From: Escherichia phage vB_ESM-pEJ01
Sequence record: OP114734.1
Strand: one strand, 5' to 3'
Length of the DNA: 64,000 nucleotides
This document shows, piece by piece, positions 7,953 to 47,211 of this stretch (its first letter is position 1; each line of letters begins with the position of its first letter). Made by a program: the position numbers and the translations under genes. Under the pieces are notes generated by a model that made no database searches, was not told the DNA's origin, and was given only the letters and a program-made list of their open reading frames with translations.

Positions 7953-7979
7953 TTATAGAGAATCTCCCTTGTATGTCAA
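7953..7979 (-). promoter_or_regulatory. early-type promoter cassette with GGGAGA/TCTCCC hairpin over -10
   Basis: TTGACA at 7979..7974, TATAAT at 7958..7953, 16-nt spacer. Confidence 0.55.
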
Positions 7980-8539
7980 CTAAAATTTAAAGATGCAAAC
8001 TCCCCGTGATGAATTTTTGCATATTCATCATATGCTCTAGCGGCTTCCTCCTGAGTAGCAAACGATCCTATGTATTTTCTGTATCCGTTTATCCTTATTT
8101 GTGCTTGCCACGGTCTTTTGCTAGATCCTTTGCGATGAGTAACACCATTATATATGCTCGTGCACCCGTCCATTTTCTTTTTATTGTACATGTTTTGTTG
8201 TTGTGTTGCCTCCCGTAAATTTGGTGGATTGTTGTTTTCTGGATTCCCGTCTATGTGGTCTATTACCTTAACCTGTGTTCCATATTCAAGAAACCAGACA
8301 ATTCTATGTACAAGATATGTAGATGTTCTCTTTTTAACCTTATTGTAAACATCTATTGCCAAATGACCGTAATTTAACTTTTTTGTTTTTACTTTATCAC
8401 CGACTCGGTAGAAATATCCCTCTGGTAGACCATTAAAAGACGGACTATTTGTTTTGTGATATAGAACACCTTCCGTGTGTTCAAATCTGCGTTTTAATTC
8501 CTCTTGAATTTCAGTATTCCAAAATTTCGCACTTTTCAT
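7976..8539 (-). CDS. HNH homing endonuclease with C-terminal AP2 DNA-binding domain
   Basis: HNH_3 motif VDHIDGNPENNNPPNLREAT; AP2-like YNGVTHRKGSSKRPWQAQIRINGYRKYIGSFATQEEAARAYD; free-standing between rIIA.1 block and topoisomerase gene. Confidence 0.8.
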   Translation of the reverse strand: MKSAKFWNTEIQEELKRRFEHTEGVLYHKTNSPSFNGLPEGYFYRVGDKVKTKKLNYGHLAIDVYNKVKKRTSTYLVHRIVWFLEYGTQVKVIDHIDGNPENNNPPNLREATQQQNMYNKKKMDGCTSIYNGVTHRKGSSKRPWQAQIRINGYRKYIGSFATQEEAARAYDEYAKIHHGEFASLNFS

Positions 8540-18188: not shown

Positions 18189-19601
18189 TTAGAAAGTCAT
18201 GTTATTTGCTAGCTCGTCGAGTTTTTCTCGTTTCTCGGCTTGCTGTGCGCTTTGTGGTTTAACTTGTGCATTCTCCTGATCTGCGATCTGGTTTGGTACT
18301 TCATACCAACGCTGATTGCCTTTTTTCACACCAACGTTAAACCGTGAATAATAGTTCTTATCACCGTAACGAGACTTGATCTGCTTCATGAGTTGGACGC
18401 CCATTTTAGCCAGGTCTTCGGTTTCGATAACACCCAACATAAAGTCGGCAGTAGCCGGAAGACCTGCCGATTCAGCGGTATCACTCATGTTAAGGTCGGA
18501 AGCATCCCAACCCGCGCGGGTAGTCTGTGCCGCAGTCCAACCAACAACATCCCACTTAACAAAAAATCCTCGCAGTTCTTCCGCAATCGCCTTAACTAGT
18601 GTGTAACTATTTTCAGAGTATACACGCAAGCGAGACGATGCGCAAATCCCAAGATAGTCAACAATCACAACATCAGGTTTAAACTGTTTCTTGAGTCGCA
18701 ATTCATTCATTAACGCCTCAAAGTGATTGGAGTTCGCGCCACCAGTCGGATACTGCTTGATCATCAATTTTCCAACCGGACGATCTCCGATCTTCTTATT
18801 CTTAACACGCTTCATACGTGCGGAATATTCCGCAAAAGAAACATTACCATTATCCAATTCATCTAATGTAATGTCAAGCAAGTTTGCGTCAATACGTTTG
18901 GCTACGACATGCTCTGCCATCTCCATTGAGATATACAATACATCATAACCACATTCCATATAATCCGCAGCAAGAGAACACAGTCCAAGCGATTTGCCAA
19001 CGTTTACACCAGCAAGCAACACGTTTAGCGTTTTTCTTTCCGCCCCTCCTTTCGTGATTTTATTCAACATCGGCAGCTTAAATGGGATCTTATTCGCCTT
19101 AGTCTGATATAACAGGAATCGTTTTTCAAAGTCATTAAACCAGTCATGACCTACATCAGAATCAAACGTAATGGATAGTGCTTCCTGCATAATTTCAGGA
19201 ATAGCGCCCTCACTAGGCAATTTCTTATTCTGTTTCTCTTTTGGTAGTTGTGCGTTCGCCTGAATCTCTAGCGCCCGTGACATTGCATTGTACATAGCAC
19301 GGTCACGAATAAATTTTTCGGTTTCCTTCATTAACCAATCAAGGTCTTCCGGTGTATTCTCCAGCGAATCGAGAAGAGTTTTAGCCCCTTCATATGTTGT
19401 CTGATTGCCTCTCTCCTTGTCTAAAGCAATCTGTAATGCAGTTGGCGTAGGAATATTGGAATATTCGTCTACGTGCTTTTTAATCAGCTTATAAATCAGT
19501 TTTTCTTCGTCTTCGGTGAAGTAGTCCGCTTTAAGGTGAGGCCATACATTCGTAAAGAATGCGCCATTGTAAATCAACTGTGAAAAGATAGTTTTAATCA
19601 T
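18189..19601 (-). CDS. 41: replicative DNA helicase (DnaB-like, T4 gp41 homologue)
   Basis: 470 aa; Walker A LLAGVNVGKS, Walker B VVIVDYLG, typical DnaB C-terminal RecA fold. Confidence 0.9.
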   Translation of the reverse strand: MIKTIFSQLIYNGAFFTNVWPHLKADYFTEDEEKLIYKLIKKHVDEYSNIPTPTALQIALDKERGNQTTYEGAKTLLDSLENTPEDLDWLMKETEKFIRDRAMYNAMSRALEIQANAQLPKEKQNKKLPSEGAIPEIMQEALSITFDSDVGHDWFNDFEKRFLLYQTKANKIPFKLPMLNKITKGGAERKTLNVLLAGVNVGKSLGLCSLAADYMECGYDVLYISMEMAEHVVAKRIDANLLDITLDELDNGNVSFAEYSARMKRVKNKKIGDRPVGKLMIKQYPTGGANSNHFEALMNELRLKKQFKPDVVIVDYLGICASSRLRVYSENSYTLVKAIAEELRGFFVKWDVVGWTAAQTTRAGWDASDLNMSDTAESAGLPATADFMLGVIETEDLAKMGVQLMKQIKSRYGDKNYYSRFNVGVKKGNQRWYEVPNQIADQENAQVKPQSAQQAEKREKLDELANNMTF

Positions 19602-19915
19602 ACGTAGCCCCCAACTACACGCATAACAAAGGTCTTGAGTTTATACCAGAAAGTTTCTTTTTTCAACTTTTCTTCTGCTTCTTTGATCTGCGCGGTTAAC
19701 GCCTTAATGACGTGTGGATATACCACATCACGATCTGACGGCGTGGAGTAGTCGACCACAATACCTTTAGTGTCTGGATCGTATTCAACATTATGAATAT
19801 AGACAATATGATGTTCTCCCTCTTCATCAACAATTATCAGTTCCTGAATAACTGTCTTCATTGCTTCTTGAATCAAGCTGTGTGCTTCTTCTAAACTTGT
19901 TGGTTTCTTATCCAT
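19598..19915 (-). CDS. hypothetical protein (T4 gene 40 position)
   Basis: ORF between 41 and uvsX; GAGAGGA RBS. Confidence 0.4.
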   Translation of the reverse strand: MDKKPTSLEEAHSLIQEAMKTVIQELIIVDEEGEHHIVYIHNVEYDPDTKGIVVDYSTPSDRDVVYPHVIKALTAQIKEAEEKLKKETFWYKLKTFVMRVVGGYV

Positions 19916-19941: not shown

Positions 19942-19970
19942 ATTTTACTACTTTAATTATTCTATGTCAA
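19942..19970 (-). promoter_or_regulatory. early-type promoter (-35 TTGACA, 17 nt, -10 TAAAAT)
   Basis: Overlaps stop of HNH gene; feeds ORF 19598..19915. Confidence 0.5.
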
Positions 19971-20706
19971 CAAATTTCCAATTTGGAAAGTCTGGACTCA
20001 TACAACGACGCCGAACGGTTCCGCGCTCGTTTCCTAGTACCTTAGATACTTCCGATACAGATTTATAAATCACACCATCAACAAATACAGCCTTTCGGTC
20101 TTTCCTGTTTTGGTTTTTGCTCTTTTCTCTTCTGGCTTCTACGTTATCCGAATCATTCCATTGTCTCTTTGCTGTCTCTCTGGAAGATATTGCCTTTTGT
20201 TCTTTAACAATATCTTTAACGAGTTGTTCTTGTCCTGTTATCTTCGCCCACACATTAACAGACTGGATAGCATTAGCCTCACTCATTCCCCAGCGTTTGC
20301 CGGATATATTCTTACGACGCACGCGTAGAAATTCGTTAAAGACTTCTTCGCATTGGTGCATATAATCACGAAATCCATATTTCTTAGCCCATGCCTCTTT
20401 AATTGCATCAGACATATTTTCGGCAATACGTCTACGCATCCATGCATACTCCTTATTATTGCGACCGTGACTGGTCATGCACATCATACGCGAAGCCATA
20501 ATAAGACCCACATGTTTAGGATACATTTTAGCTAAAAGTAGATGTGCTGTAAAGTGTTCCTCTGGAGTCAATGGAACGAGATTTTCGTGGTCATCGGTTC
20601 CACCCATACAACGTGGTTTAACGTGATGGATCTCTACATATCCGGTCGGCTTCTCGCGGGTTCTTGCTCGTTCAATCAATTTTTTGTAATGTGCTTTGTA
20701 GTTCAT
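19957..20706 (-). CDS. HNH homing endonuclease with C-terminal DNA-binding module
   Basis: HNH motif YVEIHHVKPRCMGGTDDHENLVPLTPEEHFTAH; start set at MNYKAH with GGAGGA RBS; inserted between uvsX and gene 40/41 block. Confidence 0.75.
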   Translation of the reverse strand: MNYKAHYKKLIERARTREKPTGYVEIHHVKPRCMGGTDDHENLVPLTPEEHFTAHLLLAKMYPKHVGLIMASRMMCMTSHGRNNKEYAWMRRRIAENMSDAIKEAWAKKYGFRDYMHQCEEVFNEFLRVRRKNISGKRWGMSEANAIQSVNVWAKITGQEQLVKDIVKEQKAISSRETAKRQWNDSDNVEARREKSKNQNRKDRKAVFVDGVIYKSVSEVSKVLGNERGTVRRRCMSPDFPNWKFVDIE

Positions 20707-20719
20707 GTGATCCTCCATA

Positions 20720-20744
20720 TGAAAAAGGGGCATAACGCCCCTTA
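20720..20744 (-). terminator. rho-independent terminator after uvsX
   Basis: AAGGGGC-ataac-GCCCCTT hairpin followed by TTTTTC on minus strand. Confidence 0.6.
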
Positions 20745-20757
20745 ACTGTCACTGATA

Positions 20758-21828
20758 TTATGCTAACATATCTTCGATTTCTTTGTCAACTGCTTCGTCG
20801 CTGATAATCTGGCCTAACTGATAATGATCGTTGATTGCTTTCTGGAAGTGCTCATTGGTCAGTAGAGGTTTCCAGAACTCCACACTGTCAGTGTCTTTTG
20901 CACGCACCTTGCGGTCTTCAACTTCCATTTCTCCGGTCTCCTCGTTAAGAATAGCGCGAGAATACCAGCCATTTGATGGTTTAACTACCCAACCCAACTC
21001 CACCGCAAGATCCAGCAATCCAGAATAAGGATCGATGCCACCACTAAACGTTACGCTAATCGGGAACTTTGATCCCTCTCTAACCGTTCGTGATTTCTCG
21101 GCTTTCAGAATAAAGTCATAACCCGTAACCTCGGTTCCTTCTTTCTGCTGGCGACGCCCAATGATGAAAATTTCATTGGAAGAGTAAACGCCACCAGTAC
21201 CGCCACCCATGATATCTTTCGGGTAAAGATCCATTGAGCTATAAACGTGGTTAATCGCAATGCACGGAATATCATTCATGGTCAGATACGGCGTAATCAT
21301 ACGGAACAAGCCTTTAAGTGCTTTAGCTCTCGTCATATCCTGTGCCGATTTCTCATTAATCGCGTCTTCAACTTCTTTTTTACTTGCCAAGTTACCGATT
21401 GAGTCAATAAAGATGATCACTTTATCTTCACGGGTAATTTGCTCAAGCTGGTTCATGATCTCAAATTTAAGTTCTTCGATGTTCTTGATTGGAACGTGCA
21501 CCACTCGATCAGGATCTACACCCATAGATGACAGATACGCGGAAGTAATGCCAAATTCTGAATCAAAGAACAAACAAGCCGCATCTGGATTCTGTTTCAT
21601 GTATGCACTAACACAAGTTAATCCCATGTTTGATTTAAAGTGCTTAGACGGACCAGCAAAGAAAATCAGACCAGATTGAAAGCCTTTTTTAAGATCACCA
21701 GAAAACGCAATATTCAGCATCGGGATCTTAGTGCGAGTATTTGTTTTTTCGTTAAAGAAGCTGGATTTAGACAGTACCGCAGTAGTTTTCAGGGTAGAGT
21801 TCTTTTTCAGTTTTTCCAGTACAGACAT
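20758..21828 (-). CDS. uvsX: UvsX recombinase (RecA-like)
   Basis: 356 aa; Walker A FAGPSKHFKS and RecA-fold core (IFIDSIGNLASKKE). Confidence 0.85.
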   Translation of the reverse strand: MSVLEKLKKNSTLKTTAVLSKSSFFNEKTNTRTKIPMLNIAFSGDLKKGFQSGLIFFAGPSKHFKSNMGLTCVSAYMKQNPDAACLFFDSEFGITSAYLSSMGVDPDRVVHVPIKNIEELKFEIMNQLEQITREDKVIIFIDSIGNLASKKEVEDAINEKSAQDMTRAKALKGLFRMITPYLTMNDIPCIAINHVYSSMDLYPKDIMGGGTGGVYSSNEIFIIGRRQQKEGTEVTGYDFILKAEKSRTVREGSKFPISVTFSGGIDPYSGLLDLAVELGWVVKPSNGWYSRAILNEETGEMEVEDRKVRAKDTDSVEFWKPLLTNEHFQKAINDHYQLGQIISDEAVDKEIEDMLA

Positions 21829-21839
21829 TATTAATACCT

Positions 21840-22067
21840 CTATTCAGTTAATCCGTAATACTTTAATTGCTTCATTGTTATTCGATCTTTGTAGTGCTCT
21901 TGAATTAACTTTTTCATCACATCAACATCGATCGTCACAAATACTTCGTTGCTGTGATTTCCGTGAACTTTCTTGAAATGCTCTATGCCTTCCTCACGTT
22001 CACGTTTAATCTTTTCAATGTCTCTCATAATATATTTCTCACATTGGCGGGTATCGTAACCCAACAC
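21840..22067 (-). CDS. hypothetical protein (75 aa)
   Basis: Only ORF between uvsX and gene 43. Confidence 0.4.
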   Translation of the reverse strand: MLGYDTRQCEKYIMRDIEKIKREREEGIEHFKKVHGNHSNEVFVTIDVDVMKKLIQEHYKDRITMKQLKYYGLTE

Positions 22068-22089
22068 CCGCCATTATACACACTTTATC

Positions 22090-24768
22090 TTAAATGTCAA
22101 ACAGGTCCGTAAGCGATGCCACCTTTTCATATTGCAGCTTTGCAGCCGTGGTAATGTTCTCCAGTGGTTTGACGAAAGTCTTATTAAACAACAAAGGCCA
22201 GTCCAACCACTTCAACACCTCTGATTCAATTTCTGGAGGAATACGAGTACCAGACAACCAACCAAAACAGATTTCTCCAAACGGATTTCGATCTTTAAGC
22301 GGTACAATCATAACCTTCTCGCCTTCACGAATCGGATCTAGTCCGAATTTTCGAGCATTACGATTATAACACAATACACTCTTAACCGCATACGGACAAC
22401 CCTTAATCGGATACCCGTTTGAATCGCTGTATTTCTGTAGGTTGTTTGCAGATGATACCGCAGCAACATCAAGATAGTCAAGTTTTCTAAATTCTTGCTC
22501 AAAAATACCGTAGTATTCCTGCAATGACTCTTCACCTTCCTGCAACATACGGCGAATACATTCTTTCAGTGATTTCTGACATGCTTTAGGGGTGGAGCTA
22601 CGTTGCGTTTCCAAGCCCATGATTTTTAGCTTAGGTTCAGCAAAGCGCGTTCCTTCCATATCCCAAACATTAAGAGCATAACGCTTTTTGCCAGTCCAGA
22701 ATCCACCGATACCCGCAGATTTCAACGGAGGACCAGCAATTGCCTCACGGTCCATAAACATCAAGTGCTCATAGTTGTTCATGTACTCGCATAACTCGCG
22801 ATATCCCTTGTCGATAATAGGTTCCATTCGATGTTTACCGAAATTATCAAGGAAGTCAACAAGTTTTTCGGTATCGTCGAAACGATCTTCCCCGCCAACC
22901 TTATCAACAACATTGTTAACCAGCACATAAACGGAGTCAGTATCACAATAACGAACATATGCAAAATCGGTTGTTCCGCAAAGCTCGTTTAAGTATTCGT
23001 TAATCTTACGCTCAATCCACTGAATTGCAAGCTGACCGAACAGTGTGATCGCACTAGCGTTACGGAGATCATAAAAACGGAATTTAGGATTCCCCAACGC
23101 ACCATAAAGTGAGTTGATCAAAACTTTTCGAGAAAGCTGGTTTGTATTGCACAAGATCGACTCGTCTTTACATTCTTCCAGCAATTTCTCTAAGGTATCT
23201 TTGCTTAATTCAGAAAGCATCGATTTAAACGCTTCATCGAAGTCGTGACGCACTTCAACGCTATAGCTAATGGTTCCCCCATAAACATGATTTTCATCGT
23301 GTAGAATCGCTTTACATAGTTCAGCATTGCGATCACATGCCAACATCATGTTTTTGTACTGCTTACGCTGATCGAATACCTTTTTAATCTCAATCGGTAC
23401 GATACCATGAATATCTTTTCTATACATCCATCCGTTAGGCGAGCAAGAATACTCATCACTCGGACGTGGTGCAGTTTTATTGATATACTCGTGCATCGGT
23501 GCAGCATCAAAAGATCCAGCGATTGTTTCAGGAGAAATATTAACCTGTCGAATAATAGATGGGTACAGACTTGTTAAGTCAAAGCTCATCATCCAACGGT
23601 AAGCATTTGGCACAGGTTCTTTTACAAATGCGCCTGGATACGTCTGCTTAGGCTGTATCTTATTTTCCGGTACTACTTTACCCTCAGCTTTCAGAGATCC
23701 GAAGATAATAGCATCCCATACTTTCATCGGGTTATAAACATGGTTAAATTTAATCTTTGCATAGAAACATAGACTATACACAAGATCGATAAATCCACGC
23801 TTTTTATCAATCGCCAGCACACGATCAACGTCGCCGATGTTATAATCGATGTAAAGTTGATGGTTGTCATCACGCAATTTCTTTAACGGACCATCATAAT
23901 CAACCTTACCGATTCCTGTCTCATATTCAGCAACATAATCTAACGCATATGTTGGTTGAGTCGTAAAGCTAAATTTCTTGTACAGGTCAATATAATCAAG
24001 GCTTTCGATCCCCATGATCGTAAATGCTTCACGCTCGTTGCCAAAATCATCCTGTGAGATTCTGGATTTAATCTTACCGCACGGGCTTAGACGGTTAGCG
24101 GTTCTACTTCCGAACTTATTACTGATACGTTTAATGATATATGGAATATCGAATGTTTCTGTGTTCCAGCCAGTGAAACCAACGGGTCGGTTTTCCTCAA
24201 AGAATCGGATGTATTCTAACAGCAATTCATCTTCTGTGTCATAGACGTTATAAACAACGCGCTCTACAATATCAGGTCGAAGAATAGACTTGCTTGCTTC
24301 CCAGATTTCACCGTTTTTTCCTTTCAAATCAAATACAAAGAAACGATCATGTACGGAATCATAATGCGTAATTGCATCGATAGGATATTTCGCTTCTTCT
24401 GGTTTAGGAAATTCTGGGGCAGTGACCTCAATATCAACCCATGCTACACGGATTTTATTTCGGTCATATCGAATCTCGCCTTTATACGTATCAGACAGAT
24501 AGGAGATGATAAAATCATCCATCCCTAGTGCCTCCTGCCCCATTTCTCCCATCTTTTTACGCCATTTGTTGGCCTCGTTCATAGATGGGAATTTTTTAGC
24601 AATGCAAGGCTTGCCATAGATATCTTTATAATTCGTAACCATACCAGGCGCGGCATGATGAAATAATGTTGGCGTATATTCAACGTAACGCTCTTGTTCT
24701 TGTCCAGCATCATCAATATAACGCTCGTAGATCTTATCACCTACTCGCTCACATGACAGAAAATACAT
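22090..24768 (-). CDS. 43: DNA polymerase (family B, T4 gp43 homologue)
   Basis: Exo and pol motifs (DIEVT, YGDTDS, KKRYA, SLYPSII); start set to ATG MYFLSC.. with GAAGGAG RBS (track start 24798 is GTG inside leader). Confidence 0.9.
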   Translation of the reverse strand: MYFLSCERVGDKIYERYIDDAGQEQERYVEYTPTLFHHAAPGMVTNYKDIYGKPCIAKKFPSMNEANKWRKKMGEMGQEALGMDDFIISYLSDTYKGEIRYDRNKIRVAWVDIEVTAPEFPKPEEAKYPIDAITHYDSVHDRFFVFDLKGKNGEIWEASKSILRPDIVERVVYNVYDTEDELLLEYIRFFEENRPVGFTGWNTETFDIPYIIKRISNKFGSRTANRLSPCGKIKSRISQDDFGNEREAFTIMGIESLDYIDLYKKFSFTTQPTYALDYVAEYETGIGKVDYDGPLKKLRDDNHQLYIDYNIGDVDRVLAIDKKRGFIDLVYSLCFYAKIKFNHVYNPMKVWDAIIFGSLKAEGKVVPENKIQPKQTYPGAFVKEPVPNAYRWMMSFDLTSLYPSIIRQVNISPETIAGSFDAAPMHEYINKTAPRPSDEYSCSPNGWMYRKDIHGIVPIEIKKVFDQRKQYKNMMLACDRNAELCKAILHDENHVYGGTISYSVEVRHDFDEAFKSMLSELSKDTLEKLLEECKDESILCNTNQLSRKVLINSLYGALGNPKFRFYDLRNASAITLFGQLAIQWIERKINEYLNELCGTTDFAYVRYCDTDSVYVLVNNVVDKVGGEDRFDDTEKLVDFLDNFGKHRMEPIIDKGYRELCEYMNNYEHLMFMDREAIAGPPLKSAGIGGFWTGKKRYALNVWDMEGTRFAEPKLKIMGLETQRSSTPKACQKSLKECIRRMLQEGEESLQEYYGIFEQEFRKLDYLDVAAVSSANNLQKYSDSNGYPIKGCPYAVKSVLCYNRNARKFGLDPIREGEKVMIVPLKDRNPFGEICFGWLSGTRIPPEIESEVLKWLDWPLLFNKTFVKPLENITTAAKLQYEKVASLTDLFDI

Positions 24769-24800: not shown

Positions 24801-24829
24801 ATTATAGGGGAATCGACCTAGTTTGTCAA
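24801..24829 (-). promoter_or_regulatory. promoter upstream of gene 43 (-35 TTGACA, 17 nt, -10 TATAAT) flanked by GGGG/CCCC
   Basis: Minus strand TTGACAaactaggtcgattccccTATAAT. Confidence 0.55.
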
Positions 24830-32672: not shown

Positions 32673-32713
32673 AGTCTCTTCCTCTCTTCGTTTTCGATGC
32701 TCTCACTATATCA

Positions 32714-32741
32714 CAGAAAAATAAAAAGGGAAACCCCTTTC
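32714..32741 (-). terminator. rho-independent terminator
   Basis: AAAGGG-gttt-CCCTTT hairpin followed by TTTTTATTTTT. Confidence 0.55.
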
Positions 32742-32762
32742 AGAGTCTCCCTTATAAAGCCA

Positions 32763-33050
32763 TTACAGCATACTTAATACCGTTTGCCGTGTACTAATCC
32801 ACATAGCAGAAAGCAGTTCTGGCGTGTGTGGCTGTTTGTAGATATCACGTAATTTTCCGATAGCGTAGATATACGCATCACGATTATCATCGATGATAGC
32901 TTGTTCAGCCCACCGCTTAAGGCGTGCAATCTCTCGCGAGTTCTTACGCAAGATCTTTTCCGCTTTCTTAGCGGCTTTAGCCTCTAGTTCTGCTTGTACT
33001 TTGTCTACTTCATTCACTGCAATCTGGTCATGCTGTTCATCGTAAGTCAT
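32763..33050 (-). CDS. hypothetical protein (95 aa)
   Basis: ORF. Confidence 0.4.
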   Translation of the reverse strand: MTYDEQHDQIAVNEVDKVQAELEAKAAKKAEKILRKNSREIARLKRWAEQAIIDDNRDAYIYAIGKLRDIYKQPHTPELLSAMWISTRQTVLSML

Positions 33051-33051
33051 G

Positions 33052-33285
33052 TTATTTTCCTTCTGGGATATAGTCGATGATTAAAGAAAATTCATCTTCT
33101 GATACATTATAGCTATGTGAGATTGTACCCGTAAAGACCTCAAGATCCGGTGATTTGATATTGCACGGATCGATAATCACCGGAACGCCGCAATCTCTCA
33201 AAAATAATTTGGCGAAATACGGCACGAGGTCAGTTTCAAACTCTGCTTCTTCCAGCAAACGGGAAATGTTAATTTTCAATCTCAT
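33052..33285 (-). CDS. hypothetical protein (77 aa)
   Basis: ORF. Confidence 0.4.
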
Positions 33286-33842: not shown

Positions 33843-35312
33843 CTATTCCCCATTGCCATTATACTTTCTTTGCTTAGTTATCCACACTCTAACCATCTCT
33901 ACTGATTCACCGTCAGACGGATCAAGAGTTTTTCCTTTTTTCTTCATGCGGTACTTAAATCCGTTAAATCTTGCATTCTCTTGCTCGTTAAAGTCGAACA
34001 TCTTTTTAAATGATTTTCGCCCTTTACGCTCACCACATTCTAGCGGAATCATTCGGTCTGTTATTACATTGGCATTAGGTAGAAACGTTTTTAGATAATC
34101 CACCAACGCCCAATCAGGAACATATAGATTAACATTCTCCTTGCTCTCGTTGTCTCTCAGGTTACAACGCAAACATAATTGAAATGCTGGTTCCAGATAA
34201 TCAGACACATGACGCGCTTTCAAAAACTCATTTGTCGGGAGATCACAACTATTAGCAAGACCTTTTAAAATATCAATCTCCCATCGTTGAGGGTTAAAGC
34301 TGAACATCACAGCAACATTTTTATGATGAATGTAAGAGTTAAGACCATAAGATCCGTAAGGTATCCGCTCACCAATACCATTTGTACACGCTTCACGGTC
34401 CCGATTCACGGTATAAATGAAGTCATCACCACATTCATTTTTAACCATATCAACAAGACGTTCAAAGGTATTGTTTGTTTCTGACTGGTGACGCGACCAT
34501 CGTTCGGAGTCCGTCATGAGGATGATATTAACTCTATCTGTATTTTTATACTCTTTGAAATATAGTCGGGATTCTAGCGCACTCGGAACAAAATCGCAAT
34601 TTTCATAGTATCGTAGATACTTCCCGCTATATGTATCAAAGAGATTTGCACATGCTATCGTAACCTTTTTAAAGTCTCCCCACGTACCGTGTTTGTTATC
34701 GTTCAAGAAAACAATTTTCGACCCGTTCTTCCGGTGTCCTTCGTTATGTTTTACCATAACGTTGATTTTCTTCTCTAATAACGCCTCATAAAGCCCTCTA
34801 AGAGAAGAATCGATCATATCAGTACCATCCTTTGCACTTTCTATCTTTTCTTTGATAGCGGCCTTCTCAGAGTCTTTTAGAACTAAGTTCTGTAGGCATT
34901 CCGATTCGTCGGCGATTGGTTCGCAATGCTTCGTGATAAGTTCAAGATTAGACTTAAACGGATACTCATTAAATTCAACCAGTTGAGGAACTTCATCAAT
35001 GTAAAGAGCATATTCACCAAACATTTTTGAACGTTCCATATTAGATAACGCTGTATGTGTAATGAATATCACATCAGCACCATCTTTAACTGATTGCATT
35101 ATCGACGCTTGCACTGTCTTAAGGCTTCTTAGTCTTGTGCTATCAATCAAGACAGCACGACCGCCCATTCTTTTAAACTTATTGTAAGATTGTTCACTTA
35201 AAACACGAGATGGCGAAGCAATAACCGCTTTTTCTTTTGTCTCTAGGACGTGGGAAAGTATAGCATCAGTTTTCCCCGCCGCTGGCAATGCGATTAATGT
35301 TTCAATCTTCAT
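33843..35312 (-). CDS. P-loop NTPase, helicase-like (function unknown)
   Basis: 489 aa; Walker A ALPAAGKTDA at N-terminus, DEVPQ (DExx) ~100 aa later; no further helicase motifs recognised. Confidence 0.45.
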   Translation of the reverse strand: MKIETLIALPAAGKTDAILSHVLETKEKAVIASPSRVLSEQSYNKFKRMGGRAVLIDSTRLRSLKTVQASIMQSVKDGADVIFITHTALSNMERSKMFGEYALYIDEVPQLVEFNEYPFKSNLELITKHCEPIADESECLQNLVLKDSEKAAIKEKIESAKDGTDMIDSSLRGLYEALLEKKINVMVKHNEGHRKNGSKIVFLNDNKHGTWGDFKKVTIACANLFDTYSGKYLRYYENCDFVPSALESRLYFKEYKNTDRVNIILMTDSERWSRHQSETNNTFERLVDMVKNECGDDFIYTVNRDREACTNGIGERIPYGSYGLNSYIHHKNVAVMFSFNPQRWEIDILKGLANSCDLPTNEFLKARHVSDYLEPAFQLCLRCNLRDNESKENVNLYVPDWALVDYLKTFLPNANVITDRMIPLECGERKGRKSFKKMFDFNEQENARFNGFKYRMKKKGKTLDPSDGESVEMVRVWITKQRKYNGNGE

Positions 35313-45379: not shown

Positions 45380-45673
45380 TTAACCATTAATCTTGTTTTT
45401 GACTACAAAGGATCTGAACTCATCAAAACCACCTATATAATCACCATTATAGAAAATCTGCGGCATGGTGGCAATAACTTCTACCCCTGCGCGATCCTGA
45501 ATGTCGGCAATGATAGAATCAATCTTTACCGGACGACCGTTTTCGTCTACACCATCATTAACCGGAATGTAGATGTAAGGGATCTTACGCGATTCACAAA
45601 GGCGCTTTGCATTCTGGCAATACTTACAGTTGTAACCTTCAAAACCAAAAATTTCTACCATGTTATACCTCAT
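45380..45673 (-). CDS. nrdC: glutaredoxin (NrdC-like)
   Basis: CKYC active site, TMPQIF..G..IGGFD block as in T4 NrdC. Confidence 0.75.
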   Translation of the reverse strand: MRYNMVEIFGFEGYNCKYCQNAKRLCESRKIPYIYIPVNDGVDENGRPVKIDSIIADIQDRAGVEVIATMPQIFYNGDYIGGFDEFRSFVVKNKING

Positions 45674-46418
45674 TCAGTTCTATATCAAGTTCATTTTCAA
45701 TAATATAGGCATTAACTGCCCGTGCCGCATCATCTTCTGTGTCAAATCTTCCTATATACACACCGCGAACTTTAGCACCGTAATTACCTTGTTTTGGTAC
45801 TTTGTAAACGTATCTATGACGGGAACTTGCTGCTTTTTGGAGCTTCTTGCCATATTCAGACTTTGCATATTCTATATCATCAATCTCGTTTATACAAGAC
45901 CTATCACCAAAATGTTTCAACGCTGCAAGATTATATGCATAAGCCGCACCGATCTCGGAGGGAAAATATCCTAAATGTATAGACTTCCCATCCAACATTA
46001 TTGCACCAGTCCAATAACCTTTATTCTTATTAAACGACACACCTTTATACTTCGAATATGTTTTGCATTTGGTCTTGCTCATATTCATATTATTTTGTTT
46101 GCTTGTCGTCTCTCTAAGGTTTTCAATGCGGCTATTATAACGATCTCGGTCTTTATGATCTATATACTTAGGACAATGACCATGAAACATATGATAGATA
46201 ACACGGTGCATACGTTCGTATCGCTCGCCAGTCCATACAATACGATACCCATCGGGGGTATCACTTCCAGCTAATCCGTTTATAACACCTTTTCGGTGCG
46301 GGTGAATCTTCCACCTAAGAAAACCATCATCATAATAAAACCGTGAATGATATAAATCATACAAACGTTTATCTTCTGGAGTCTTGTGTATAACCTCATA
46401 TTTTAACATTGGTGACAT
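45663..46418 (-). CDS. HNH homing endonuclease with two AP2 domains
   Basis: IDHKDRDRYNSRIENLRETT (HNH_3); YKGVSFNKNKGYWTGAI and YGAKVRGVYIGRFDTEDDAARA (AP2). Confidence 0.8.
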   Translation of the reverse strand: MSPMLKYEVIHKTPEDKRLYDLYHSRFYYDDGFLRWKIHPHRKGVINGLAGSDTPDGYRIVWTGERYERMHRVIYHMFHGHCPKYIDHKDRDRYNSRIENLRETTSKQNNMNMSKTKCKTYSKYKGVSFNKNKGYWTGAIMLDGKSIHLGYFPSEIGAAYAYNLAALKHFGDRSCINEIDDIEYAKSEYGKKLQKAASSRHRYVYKVPKQGNYGAKVRGVYIGRFDTEDDAARAVNAYIIENELDIELNEV

Positions 46419-47211
46419 AAACTTCCTTAGTATCGGATTTTTTACCCCCGCTACGGTCTAAACAATATGTTTTATCCAGTTCAACAACAGAAATATCATT
46501 ACGTTCGATAAAATCAAGCAAATGGTTGTTAACTTTCCCTTTGTGGTGAGTAACATTGCTTAATCCAAACTTAGTACCGCTAGACATTAATGATTCTATC
46601 CACATGTAGAATTTAATCTCTTCTTCTTCACTCCAGAACTTATTATATTCTGCCGACGTGATCCAATATGGCGGATCAAGGAAAACGAAATCACCTGGCA
46701 AGATCTCGATCTCATCATAACGACCAGACGTAAAACTGATTCGACCGTCTTTGTTTTCTTCCTTAAAATTCAGGACACGCTCTACCGCGTTTTCGTTAAA
46801 AGTCCGTCGGCCAAAATTAGCATTAAATTCGCCCTTCCGGTTGTGGCGGTTAATGTTGCTAAAACTATGCTGAATCAACACAAACAGCGATAACGGATCT
46901 GGATTCTCGTTATACTTCTTACGGAATGTCATGTAAGCGTCTTTATCTTCGCGAGACAAACCATTTTCGGCAATAATACGCTTGATCGTAGAAACCGGAT
47001 CAGGACACTCGTCAATCGCTTTGTACGCGTCAATTAAGCGGTGATCATAGTCATTAGCCAGCACATCCCCTTCGACGTACAGAGACACGCTCAAGCCGCC
47101 ACAGAAGGCATCAACAAAGCGGTTATAGTGCTTAGGGAAATACTTACTAACACTTGGCAATAACTTTTCCTTATTCCCAGTATAGGGAATTAAACCTAAT
47201 GCTTTCTTCAT
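46396..47211 (-). CDS. dam: DNA adenine methyltransferase (Dam)
   Basis: FVDAFCGGLSV SAM-binding motif and DPPY catalytic motif; blocks match T4 Dam. Confidence 0.85.
   Translation of the reverse strand: MKKALGLIPYTGNKEKLLPSVSKYFPKHYNRFVDAFCGGLSVSLYVEGDVLANDYDHRLIDAYKAIDECPDPVSTIKRIIAENGLSREDKDAYMTFRKKYNENPDPLSLFVLIQHSFSNINRHNRKGEFNANFGRRTFNENAVERVLNFKEENKDGRISFTSGRYDEIEILPGDFVFLDPPYWITSAEYNKFWSEEEEIKFYMWIESLMSSGTKFGLSNVTHHKGKVNNHLLDFIERNDISVVELDKTYCLDRSGGKKSDTKEVYVTNVKI

What the first reader, a model, noticed from the sequence alone, without database searches (positions are those of the whole stretch)
20758..24768. No beta-glucosyltransferase, dCMP hydroxymethylase (42) or imm between uvsX and gene 43
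In T4 the interval between uvsX and gene 43 carries beta-gt, gene 42 and imm. Here it holds a single 75-aa ORF, and no protein in the window resembles a thymidylate-synthase-fold dCMP hydroxymethylase or a glucosyltransferase. A gp56 dCTPase homologue is present, however. Either the hydroxymethylation genes lie elsewhere in the genome or the DNA carries unmodified or differently modified cytosine, as reported for RB49-like phages.
Basis: partly seen in the sequence, partly recalled or inferred. Interest (0 to 1): 0.4.

Follow-up and report, generated by a model that had tools for sequence, protein, structure and literature searches.

The report
RB49-type phage without cytosine-modification genes
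This is a stretch of an RB49-like (Krischvirus) relative of phage T4 that lacks T4's genes for hydroxymethylating and glucosylating cytosine, a long-published trait of this group, and its DNA instead avoids restriction-enzyme sites.

Summary
The window is a Krischvirus (RB49-like) genome segment, 96-99% identical to KFS-EC, RB49 and others. T4 has uvsX-segA-beta-gt-42-imm-imm.1-43. Here only 261 bp separate uvsX from gene 43: a perfect early promoter, a stable hairpin, and one genus-restricted orphan ORF that is more likely 62 aa than 75 aa. No ORF in the window matches a thymidylate-synthase fold, glycosyltransferase, TET/JBP or C5-methylase family. The gp56 homologue is present (49% identity to T4). 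Three complete Krischvirus genomes also lack gp42, alpha-gt, beta-gt, imm, alc, denB, arn and ndd, so the 'genes lie elsewhere' alternative fails. Their only TS-fold gene is a genuine ThyA. Published reviews list these absences, and published experiments show RB49 DNA has no hmC. New here: C/G-containing 6-bp palindromes are strongly depleted (median observed/expected 0.57 in the window, 20 of 50 absent, p=4e-18) but not in T4 (1.01). That fits cytosines exposed to restriction enzymes. A 2026 report says Krischvirus SAP has fully modified cytosine while near-identical TB34 does not. Over 45.8 kb, their only differences look like sequencing artefacts, so I suspect a sample mix-up.

The parts
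20758..21828 (-). uvsX (RecA-like recombinase), 356 aa
   Evidence: 59.7% identity to T4 UvsX over 350 aa, E=3e-148. The half nearer the homing endonuclease gene (residues ~195-340) is a divergent allele shared with KFS-EC.
21840..22028 (-). Small orphan ORF, probably 62 aa (the mechanical ORF extends to a GTG at 22067, 75 aa); hydrophilic and highly charged, so not Imm-like
   Evidence: No Pfam or NCBIfam hit. phrog_12120 (unknown function, 62 positions) aligns to residues 14-75. Only four homologue clusters, all >=87% identical. Annotated as 62 aa in RB49p025 and KFS-EC gp184.
22046..22072 (-). Stable hairpin 18 nt after the gene 43 stop codon (11-bp stem, 5-nt loop)
   Evidence: -21.5 kcal/mol, z=-5.86, 0 of 200 shuffles fold as well. 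Stem invariant in four genomes. Its role (3' end stabiliser or weak terminator of the gene 43 message) is inferred.
22073..22100 (-). Early-type sigma-70 promoter TTGACA-16-TATAAT straddling the gene 43 stop codon (TAA at 22090-22092)
   Evidence: 12 of 12 consensus matches. The same site is annotated as a hypothetical early promoter in RB49. Invariant in four genomes.
22090..24768 (-). Gene 43 DNA polymerase, 892 aa from the ATG
   Evidence: 55.4% identity to T4 gp43 over 903 aa. Same length as in RB49 and KFS-EC.
24801..24829 (-). Promoter TTGACA-17-TATAAT upstream of gene 43
   Evidence: 12 of 12 consensus matches.
15003..15521 (-). Gene 56 homologue (all-alpha NTP pyrophosphatase; dCTPase-dUTPase in T4)
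   Evidence: 49% identity to T4 gp56 over its full length, E=2.5e-50. Pfam dUTPase_2, phrog_173. Acidic motif blocks conserved.
32673..33268 (-). Site syntenic with T4 alpha-gt (between genes 47 and 55): only two small ORFs (32763-33050, 33052-33285)
   Evidence: T4 has a-gt between 47 and 55. There is no a-gt hit in the window, and the small ORFs have no glycosyltransferase hit.
46396..47208 (-). Dam-type N6-adenine DNA methyltransferase, the only DNA-modification enzyme found in the window
   Evidence: 45% identity to T4 Dam. Pfam MethyltransfD12 E=3e-30; NCBIfam dam 147.8 bits against a cut-off of 114.85.
19957..20733 (-). Free-standing homing endonuclease gene (HNH plus I-TevI-type DNA-binding domain) between gene 40 and uvsX; flanks the finding but plays no part in base modification
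   Evidence: Pfam I-TevI_DNA-bd and HNH. Present in KFS-EC, Sf20 and JEP8; absent from RB49, SAP and TB34.

Best explanation
The window comes from a Krischvirus (RB49-type) phage that replicates with ordinary cytosine. The whole T-even cytosine-replacement module is missing as a lineage trait: dCMP hydroxymethylase gp42, alpha- and beta-glucosyltransferases, and the functions that attack or silence C-containing DNA or protect hmC DNA (Alc, DenB, Arn, Ndd). It is not a local deletion or a relocation. uvsX and gene 43 are joined by a compact 261-bp module: an early promoter overlapping the end of gene 43, a hairpin, and a 62-aa orphan gene. The nucleotide-supply genes that do not depend on hmC remain: gp56 in the window, and dCMP deaminase, thymidylate synthase, dNMP kinase and DenA elsewhere in relatives. 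Inferred, not shown: gp56 works mainly as a dUTPase and, together with Cd and Td, channels dC/dU nucleotides toward dTMP for a 60% A+T genome, rather than emptying the dCTP pool. Shown here: instead of hiding its cytosines, this lineage has purged C/G-containing palindromic restriction sites from its genome. It also encodes a Dam methylase.
For: Identity: 96-99% nucleotide identity to Krischvirus genomes across the window; no tRNA genes, as published for RB49-type genomes (PMC2993671 Table 2). Absence: tblastn of 16 T4 proteins against the window and three complete Krischvirus genomes; Pfam. The TS-fold gene in relatives is a true ThyA. The interval is 99% conserved in four genomes. Literature: PMC2993671 Table 4 lists genes 42, alc and denB as absent from RB49-type phages and genes 56 and denA as present. 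PMC4041780: HpaII and NheI cut RB49 DNA, so no hmC or ghmC. PMC4437046 Table 3: RB49 is unaffected by GmrSD. PMC8056088 and PMC12115623: RB49 has only DenA and gp56 homologues and performs generalized transduction. Sequence-intrinsic evidence: 6-bp palindromes containing C/G have a median observed/expected ratio of 0.57 in the window (20 of 50 absent) and 0.42 in KFS-EC (TCCGGA 0 vs 68 expected, GAATTC 0 vs 45, AAGCTT 1 vs 36). Non-palindromic controls have a median of 1.00 (p=4e-18 and 6e-22). T4 shows no depletion (1.01, p=0.2). CCWGG is 0.39 against 1.12 in T4.
Against: Two thirds of this particular genome are unseen and its exact source record was not found. One 2026 paper reports HPLC/MS evidence of fully modified cytosine (5-hmdC, alpha-glucosyl- and alpha-gentiobiosyl-methyl-dC) in the Krischvirus SAP (PMC13390438). 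The substrate preference of the gp56 homologue is untested; a fully active dCTPase would seem counter-productive for a C-containing genome. Restriction-site avoidance shows long-term exposure of the lineage, not the chemistry of this isolate's DNA. Relatives encode two further methyltransferases of unknown specificity (KFS-EC gp032 and gp079), so site-specific base methylation cannot be excluded.
Confidence: 0.9

Rival explanations
1. The hydroxymethylase and glucosyltransferase genes exist but sit elsewhere in this phage's genome, outside the 64-kb window.
For: Only about 39% of a ~164-kb genome is visible, and T4-like genomes are mosaic: the nearest relative changes along the window.
Against: Three complete Krischvirus genomes 96-99% identical to the window have no gp42, a-gt or b-gt homologue anywhere. 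Alc, DenB and Arn, which travel with gene 42 (PMC2993671 Table 4), are also absent. Both canonical T4 sites (uvsX-43 and 47-55) are empty in the window. Strong restriction-site avoidance in the window argues against hypermodified DNA.
Confidence: 0.02
2. Krischvirus phages can hypermodify cytosine through an unknown pathway with no homology to gp42 or the known glucosyltransferases, as reported for phage SAP, and this phage might do so too.
For: PMC13390438 reports HPLC/MS detection of 5-hmdC and alpha-gentiobiosyl-mdC in SAP DNA, plus BrxU (GmrSD-family) sensitivity, with no explanatory gene found. The SAP uvsX-43 interval is about 97% identical to the window's, 9 differences in 282 bp.
Against: Over 45.8 kb (28% of the genome) SAP and unmodified TB34 differ only in two ways. 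There are 19 single-base homopolymer deletions in TB34, which is the outlier against SAP, the window, KFS-EC and RB49, and which frameshift uvsX and the essential gene 43. And there are 4 substitutions, all CCWGG in TB34 against CCSGG in SAP, affecting 4 of 25 Dcm sites, a pattern typical of base-calling error at methylated sites (my own knowledge). So no genetic difference is visible that could switch a pathway on or off. SAP's modification profile is the same as that of seven T6-like Tequatrovirus phages in the same collection, and the paper's discussion confuses TB34 with TB37. RB49 is experimentally unmodified. The genus shows strong restriction-site avoidance. A sample mix-up is the simpler reading (inference).
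Confidence: 0.05
3. Cytosine is not replaced, but the DNA is 'differently modified' by site-specific methylation from phage methyltransferases: Dam at GATC, possibly also N4- or C5-cytosine methylation at particular motifs.
For: A Dam homologue lies in the window. KFS-EC has two more predicted DNA methyltransferases, gp032 (MTS/Eco57I/N6_Mtase-type) and gp079 (phrog_757). PMC8056088 mentions a 'DNA-cytosine methyltransferase' in the RB49 group. GATC is not depleted here (observed/expected 1.04 against 0.33 in T4).
Against: No C5-cytosine methylase family hit in the window or in gp032/gp079. HpaII and NheI, described in that paper as sensitive to methylated cytosine, cut RB49 DNA. This would sit on top of the main explanation rather than replace it.
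Confidence: 0.25

Closest known systems
Escherichia phage RB49 (NC_005066) and other Krischvirus genomes (KFS-EC, phi1, JSE, GEC-3S)
   Same: Same gene order, with 96-99% nucleotide identity. The uvsX-orphan ORF-gene 43 arrangement is identical, with the same promoter (annotated in RB49). The same presence/absence pattern holds for genes 42, a-gt, b-gt, alc and denB (absent) and genes 56, denA, cd and dam (present). No tRNA genes.
   Different: The window carries a homing endonuclease gene between gene 40 and uvsX, with a divergent uvsX 3' half (shared with KFS-EC but not RB49). It also has an extra HNH-AP2 endonuclease gene next to dam. No identical record exists; the nearest relative changes by segment.
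Phage T4 (Tequatrovirus) hydroxymethylcytosine/glucosylation system
   Same: Flanking replication and recombination genes are orthologous and collinear (41, 40, uvsX, 43, regA, 62, 44, 45, 46, 47, 55). gp56, Dam, Cd, Td and DenA homologues are retained.
   Different: gp42, a-gt, b-gt, imm, imm.1, segA (at this site), alc, denB, arn and ndd are missing. T4 shows no palindrome avoidance, whereas this phage shows strong avoidance.
RB43-type phages (Pseudotevenvirus)
   Same: According to the literature they are also T4 relatives of E. coli without gene 42, alc or denB but with gene 56 and denA, and they are also generalized transducers (PMC2993671, PMC8056088, PMC12115623).
   Different: RB43 encodes a C-5 cytosine DNA methylase (PMC1524935 Table 3) and Ndd. 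No C5-methylase was detected here.

Membership tests
T-even cytosine-replacement system (hmC / glucosyl-hmC DNA) | dCMP hydroxymethylase (gp42): thymidylate-synthase fold with Asp instead of Asn at the base-specifying position | tested here: not met
   No hit in the window (best E=4). No Thymidylat_synt Pfam hit among 98 ORFs. In complete relatives the only TS-fold gene has Asn ('PFNVASY') and passes the NCBIfam thymidylate synthase equivalog TIGR03284.
T-even cytosine-replacement system (hmC / glucosyl-hmC DNA) | DNA alpha- and/or beta-glucosyltransferase (or TAGT-type transferase) | tested here: not met
   No tblastn hit to T4 a-gt or b-gt at E<0.01 in the window or in three complete genomes. 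No glycosyltransferase Pfam family among the window ORFs. The T6 TAGT sequence itself was not used as a query.
T-even cytosine-replacement system (hmC / glucosyl-hmC DNA) | dCTPase-dUTPase gp56 | tested here: met
   15003-15521 (-), 49% identity over the full length, E=2.5e-50. Homology only; substrate preference was not tested.
T-even cytosine-replacement system (hmC / glucosyl-hmC DNA) | Functions that discriminate against C-containing DNA or protect hmC DNA (Alc, DenB, Arn) | tested here: not met
   No hit at E<0.01 in the window or in three complete Krischvirus genomes. This agrees with PMC2993671 Table 4.
T-even cytosine-replacement system (hmC / glucosyl-hmC DNA) | Virion DNA chemically contains hmC or glycosylated hmC in place of C | not testable with these tools
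   Published for RB49: no hmC or ghmC by restriction digest (PMC4041780) and resistance to GmrSD (PMC4437046). The contrary report for SAP (PMC13390438) is doubted here.
Krischvirus (RB49-type T4-related phages) | High nucleotide identity and collinearity with RB49 and its relatives | tested here: met
   95-99% identity to about 50-58 Krischvirus records across three window segments.
Krischvirus (RB49-type T4-related phages) | uvsX and gene 43 separated only by a small orphan ORF with an early promoter | tested here: met
   99% mean column identity of the interval among the window, KFS-EC, RB49 and SAP; RB49 annotation.
Krischvirus (RB49-type T4-related phages) | No tRNA genes (PMC2993671 Table 2; PMC7552041) | tested here: met
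   ARAGORN finds 0 tRNA genes in the 64-kb window. This covers the window only.
Restriction-site (palindrome) avoidance as an anti-restriction strategy | Significant depletion of short palindromes relative to a Markov expectation and to non-palindromic controls | tested here: met
   Window: median observed/expected 0.57 against 1.00 for controls, 20 of 50 palindromes absent, p=4e-18. KFS-EC: 0.42, p=6e-22. T4: 1.01, p=0.2.

The most novel reading that the evidence does not exclude
A Krischvirus such as this one can, in some state or stock, replace its cytosines with glycosylated hydroxymethylcytosine using enzymes unrelated to gp42 and the known DNA glucosyltransferases, as claimed for phage SAP in 2026. 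The 'empty' uvsX-43 interval would then hide a truly unknown pathway encoded among the genus's many orphan genes.
Probability: 0.04. Interest if true: 0.85.

Novelty: already known. Interest (0 to 1): 0.1.

Why it matters
The finding itself matters little. That RB49-type phages lack genes 42, alpha-gt/beta-gt, alc and denB, keep genes 56 and denA, and carry unmodified cytosine has been in reviews since at least 2010, and RB49 is routinely used as the unmodified T4-like control. Two by-products may be useful. First, the contrast between strong C/G-palindrome avoidance in Krischvirus and none in T4 gives a quick, sequence-only indicator of whether a T4-like phage exposes its cytosines. Second, the SAP versus TB34 puzzle published in 2026 probably has no genetic basis: the differences I could examine are sequencing artefacts. 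That should prompt re-testing of the stock before anyone searches for a new modification pathway.

Tried and rejected
1. Homologue search for the 75-aa ORF and Pfam, NCBIfam and PHROG scans: only Krischvirus orphans, function unknown. It is not Imm-like: it is hydrophilic with no membrane segment (direct reading of the sequence), and T4 Imm gives no tblastn hit.
2. Considered that the unusual 411-aa 'thymidylate synthase' of KFS-EC might be a disguised hydroxymethylase. Rejected: Asn at the base-specifying position, TS equivalog score, and the ~135-aa insertion sits at a known variable site.
3. Considered that the extra ORFs between endonuclease VII and dam might be modification enzymes. Of the two that KFS-EC lacks, the 251-aa one is an HNH-AP2 homing endonuclease and the 110-aa one has no family hit; the neighbouring ORFs are endonuclease VII and a glutaredoxin.
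4. Tried outgroups to decide which allele is real at the four CCWGG/CCSGG differences between TB34 and SAP. Ambiguous, so the artefact reading rests on the motif specificity and on my own knowledge of base-calling errors at Dcm sites.
5. Looked for the exact source genome in the phage collection. Not found.
6. Looked for prior description of restriction-site avoidance in RB49-type phages. No paper in the held library has both terms. The original RB49 genome paper (PMC135041) is not held.
7. Did not pursue residue-level prediction of gp56 specificity, because I know of no solved structure or specificity determinants for the T4-type enzyme to compare against.


Full report
WHAT THE WINDOW IS. 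All real genes run on the minus strand, and G+C is about 40%. A 6-kb query around the finding matches 58 phage records at 95-99% identity, all RB49-like (genus Krischvirus). The best is KFS-EC at 98.8%; RB49 itself is 96.4%. Other segments of the window have different nearest relatives: kvi and LF73P4 for 1-19.5 kb, ELT3 and PTE-Eco09 for 40-64 kb. No record is identical, so this is a distinct, mosaic Krischvirus isolate. ARAGORN finds no tRNA gene, as published for RB49-type genomes (PMC2993671 Table 2; PMC7552041).

CHECKING THE OBSERVATION. The local gene order is gene 41 (18189-19601), gene 40 (19598-19915), a homing endonuclease gene (19957-20733), uvsX (20758-21828), a small ORF (21840-22067), gene 43 (22090-24768), then regA, 62, 44 and 45. 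In T4 the same stretch reads 41, 40, uvsX, segA, b-gt, 42, imm, imm.1, 43. Here only 261 bp separate uvsX from gene 43.

Those 261 bp contain three things. The first is a perfect TTGACA-16-TATAAT promoter at 22100->22073 that straddles the gene 43 stop codon; the same site is annotated as a hypothetical early promoter in RB49. The second is a stable hairpin at 22072-22046 (-21.5 kcal/mol, z=-5.9). The third is the small ORF. The 75-aa reading starts at a GTG that lies inside the hairpin and at about the transcription start of that promoter. The 62-aa reading from the ATG at 22028 agrees with the RB49 and KFS-EC annotations and with the 62-position PHROG profile, which aligns only to residues 14-75. 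The protein has no Pfam or NCBIfam match, and its only homologues are >=87% identical, so it is a genus-restricted orphan. It is hydrophilic and highly charged, so it does not resemble the membrane protein Imm. The whole interval has 99% mean column identity among the window, KFS-EC, RB49 and SAP.

NO TS-FOLD OR GLYCOSYLTRANSFERASE PROTEIN IN THE WINDOW. tblastn with T4 gp42, b-gt, a-gt, imm, imm.1, alc, denB, arn and ndd finds nothing significant in the window. I built a set of 117 non-overlapping ORFs covering 95% of the window and scanned 98 of them against Pfam. The other 19 are replication and recombination genes identified by T4 homology and relatives' annotation. There is no Thymidylat_synt, glycosyltransferase, TET/JBP or C5-methylase hit. 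The site syntenic with T4 a-gt, between genes 47 and 55, holds only two small ORFs. The gp56 homologue is real: 15003-15521, 49% identical to T4 gp56 end to end, with the acidic motif blocks conserved. A Dam homologue lies at 46396-47208.

ARE THE GENES ELSEWHERE? The unseen two thirds of this genome cannot be read, so I used complete relatives. In KFS-EC, LF73P4 and RB49 (three full genomes) the pattern is the same: b-gt, a-gt, imm, imm.1, alc, denB, arn and ndd are absent, while gp56, dam, denA and cd are present. T4 gp42 gives one weak hit (E about 7e-4), which lies inside the annotated thymidylate synthase gene. That protein reads 'GNPFNVASYALL'. It has Asn at the base-specifying position, as in T4 Td ('LPFNIASYATL'), where T4 gp42 has 'FRNDYAW'. 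It scores 279 bits on the NCBIfam thymidylate synthase equivalog TIGR03284 (cut-off 108). The meaning of Asn versus Asp at this position is from my own knowledge of the TS and dCMP hydroxymethylase structures. So it is a genuine ThyA with a ~135-aa insertion, not a hydroxymethylase.

WHAT IS ALREADY PUBLISHED. Petrov et al. 2010 (PMC2993671, Table 4) list gene 42, and with it alc and denB, in T-even, JS98, RB69, CC31, Acinetobacter and some Aeromonas phages but not in the RB49 type. [quoted passage not shown] Yaung et al. 2014 (PMC4041780) state that RB49 lacks the hydroxymethylase and beta-glucosyltransferase. They show by digestion that HpaII and NheI cut RB49 DNA but not T4 or T4 gt DNA. 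He et al. 2015 (PMC4437046, Table 3) list RB49 as 'no 5hmC' and unaffected by GmrSD. Nikulin et al. 2021 (PMC8056088) and a 2025 paper (PMC12115623) note that RB49-group phages keep only DenA and gp56 homologues and perform generalized transduction. The finding, including the gp56 'however', is therefore established knowledge.

A SEQUENCE-ONLY TEST OF EXPOSED CYTOSINES. While comparing genomes I noticed that CCWGG and CCSGG are depleted here but not in T4. I then tested all 6-bp palindromes against a maximal-order Markov expectation, with non-palindromic 6-mers as controls. In the window, palindromes containing C/G have a median observed/expected ratio of 0.57, and 20 of 50 are absent. Non-palindromes have a median of 1.00, with 1.7% below 0.5 (Mann-Whitney p=4e-18). 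In KFS-EC the median is 0.42, and 13 palindromes with 8-68 expected copies have none (TCCGGA 0 vs 68, GAATTC 0 vs 45, AGCGCT 0 vs 32, CCGCGG 0 vs 26); AAGCTT has 1 vs 36. AT-only palindromes are not depleted (0.9). In 60 kb of T4 the median is 1.01, none is absent, and p=0.2. A lineage whose cytosines were shielded by glucosyl-hmC would have no reason to purge these sites, and T4 has not. This supports canonical, restriction-exposed DNA for the lineage. It is evidence about evolutionary history, not a chemical assay of this isolate.

HOW IT MOST LIKELY WORKS. Shown: the cytosine-replacement module and its companions are absent; the supply genes gp56, Cd, Td, dNMP kinase and DenA remain (the last four outside the window, in relatives); the phage relies on site avoidance and encodes Dam. 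Inferred from the established T4 dNTP pathway: without gp42, the gp56 homologue is kept as the phage's dUTPase. Any dCTP/dCDP hydrolysis feeds dCMP deaminase and thymidylate synthase to enrich dTTP for a 60% A+T genome. Its divergence from T4 (49% identity) is similar to that of Dam (45%), DenA (50%), Cd (55%), gp43 (55%) and UvsX (60%), so nothing suggests decay. Its substrate preference is untested.

THE 2026 COMPLICATION. [quoted passage not shown] TB34, 99.96% identical to it, has canonical cytosine, and no responsible gene or SNP was found. I compared the two records over 45.8 kb, 28% of the genome, including the uvsX-43 interval. All 19 indel differences are single-base shortenings of homopolymer runs in TB34. 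At every one that could be checked, SAP, the window, KFS-EC and RB49 agree against TB34. These indels split uvsX and the essential gene 43 into two CDSs each in the TB34 record, and the TB34 record's shortened gene 45 CDS and split gene 47 fit the same cause. They are therefore assembly errors. The only substitutions are four sites, each CCWGG in TB34 and CCSGG in SAP, affecting 4 of 25 Dcm motifs. That motif specificity looks like residual base-calling error at methylated sites (my own knowledge). Outgroups could not show which allele is true. So no real genetic difference is visible.

SAP's modification profile is the same as that of seven T6-like Tequatrovirus phages in the same collection. 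The paper's discussion also once calls the unmodified variant 'TB37', which is one of those Tequatroviruses. My inference is that the DNA analysed chemically was not the DNA sequenced. This is not proven. I leave a small probability (about 4-5%) for a truly unknown pathway.

VERDICT. It is already known and of low interest. It lies no distance from a known kind: this is the textbook genotype of RB49-type phages.

Noticed in passing
window 19957-20733 (-) and uvsX 20758-~21245: A free-standing homing endonuclease gene (HNH plus I-TevI-type DNA-binding domain) sits between gene 40 and uvsX in the window, KFS-EC, Sf20 and JEP8, but not in RB49, SAP or TB34. The adjacent half of uvsX (residues ~195-340) is a divergent allele in the window and KFS-EC ('HVYSSMDLYPKDIM...' where RB49, SAP and T4 have 'HTYETQEMFSKTVM...'), while residues 1-194 are nearly identical. 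This looks like endonuclease-linked co-conversion or a cleavage-immune target allele.
   Followed up: partly
whole window; KFS-EC genome (L003-L006); T4 (L002, L007, L008): Strong avoidance of C/G-containing 6-bp palindromes and of CCNGG and GGCC in Krischvirus, with no avoidance in T4. AT-only palindromes are not avoided. GATC behaves the opposite way: observed/expected 1.04 here against 0.33 in T4, although both phages encode Dam.
   Followed up: yes
L010+L012 (SAP, OZ034687.1 101510-147323) vs L011+L013 (TB34, OX001802.1): The TB34 record carries about 19 single-base homopolymer deletions per 45.8 kb that frameshift at least uvsX and gene 43 (gene 45 and gene 47 CDSs also look affected). 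The only substitutions between TB34 and SAP are four CCWGG<->CCSGG sites. The published 'modified versus unmodified' pair therefore shows no real genetic difference in this sample.
   Followed up: partly
window 7976-8539, 45663-46418, and two ORFs within 55.9-64 kb: Several HNH_3 + AP2-domain homing endonuclease genes. The one at 45663-46418, between nrdC and dam, is absent from KFS-EC.
   Followed up: partly
L004 31526-32761 (KFS-EC gp123, outside the window): Thymidylate synthase of 411 aa, against 286 aa in T4. It has an in-frame insertion of about 135 aa between the 'WR' motif and the 'DPxSRR' motif, at the site where some bacterial TS enzymes carry a smaller insert. The catalytic motifs are intact.
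   Followed up: partly
window 22046-22072 (-): A very stable hairpin (-21.5 kcal/mol, z=-5.9) lies 18 nt after the gene 43 stop codon and overlaps the start region of the next transcript. It has no U-tract. The stem is invariant and the loop variable among four genomes.
   Followed up: partly
L003 18934-19773 and L004 10988-11659 (KFS-EC gp032 and gp079, outside the window): Two further predicted DNA methyltransferases of unknown specificity in Krischvirus. gp032 has MTS/Eco57I/N6_Mtase-type hits. gp079 matches only phrog_757. Neither matches a C5-cytosine methylase family.
   Followed up: partly
window 33843-35312 (-): A conserved 489-aa protein of unknown function with a weak DEAD-box helicase N-terminal match (phrog_2467), sitting next to gene 55 where T4 has other genes.
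   Followed up: no
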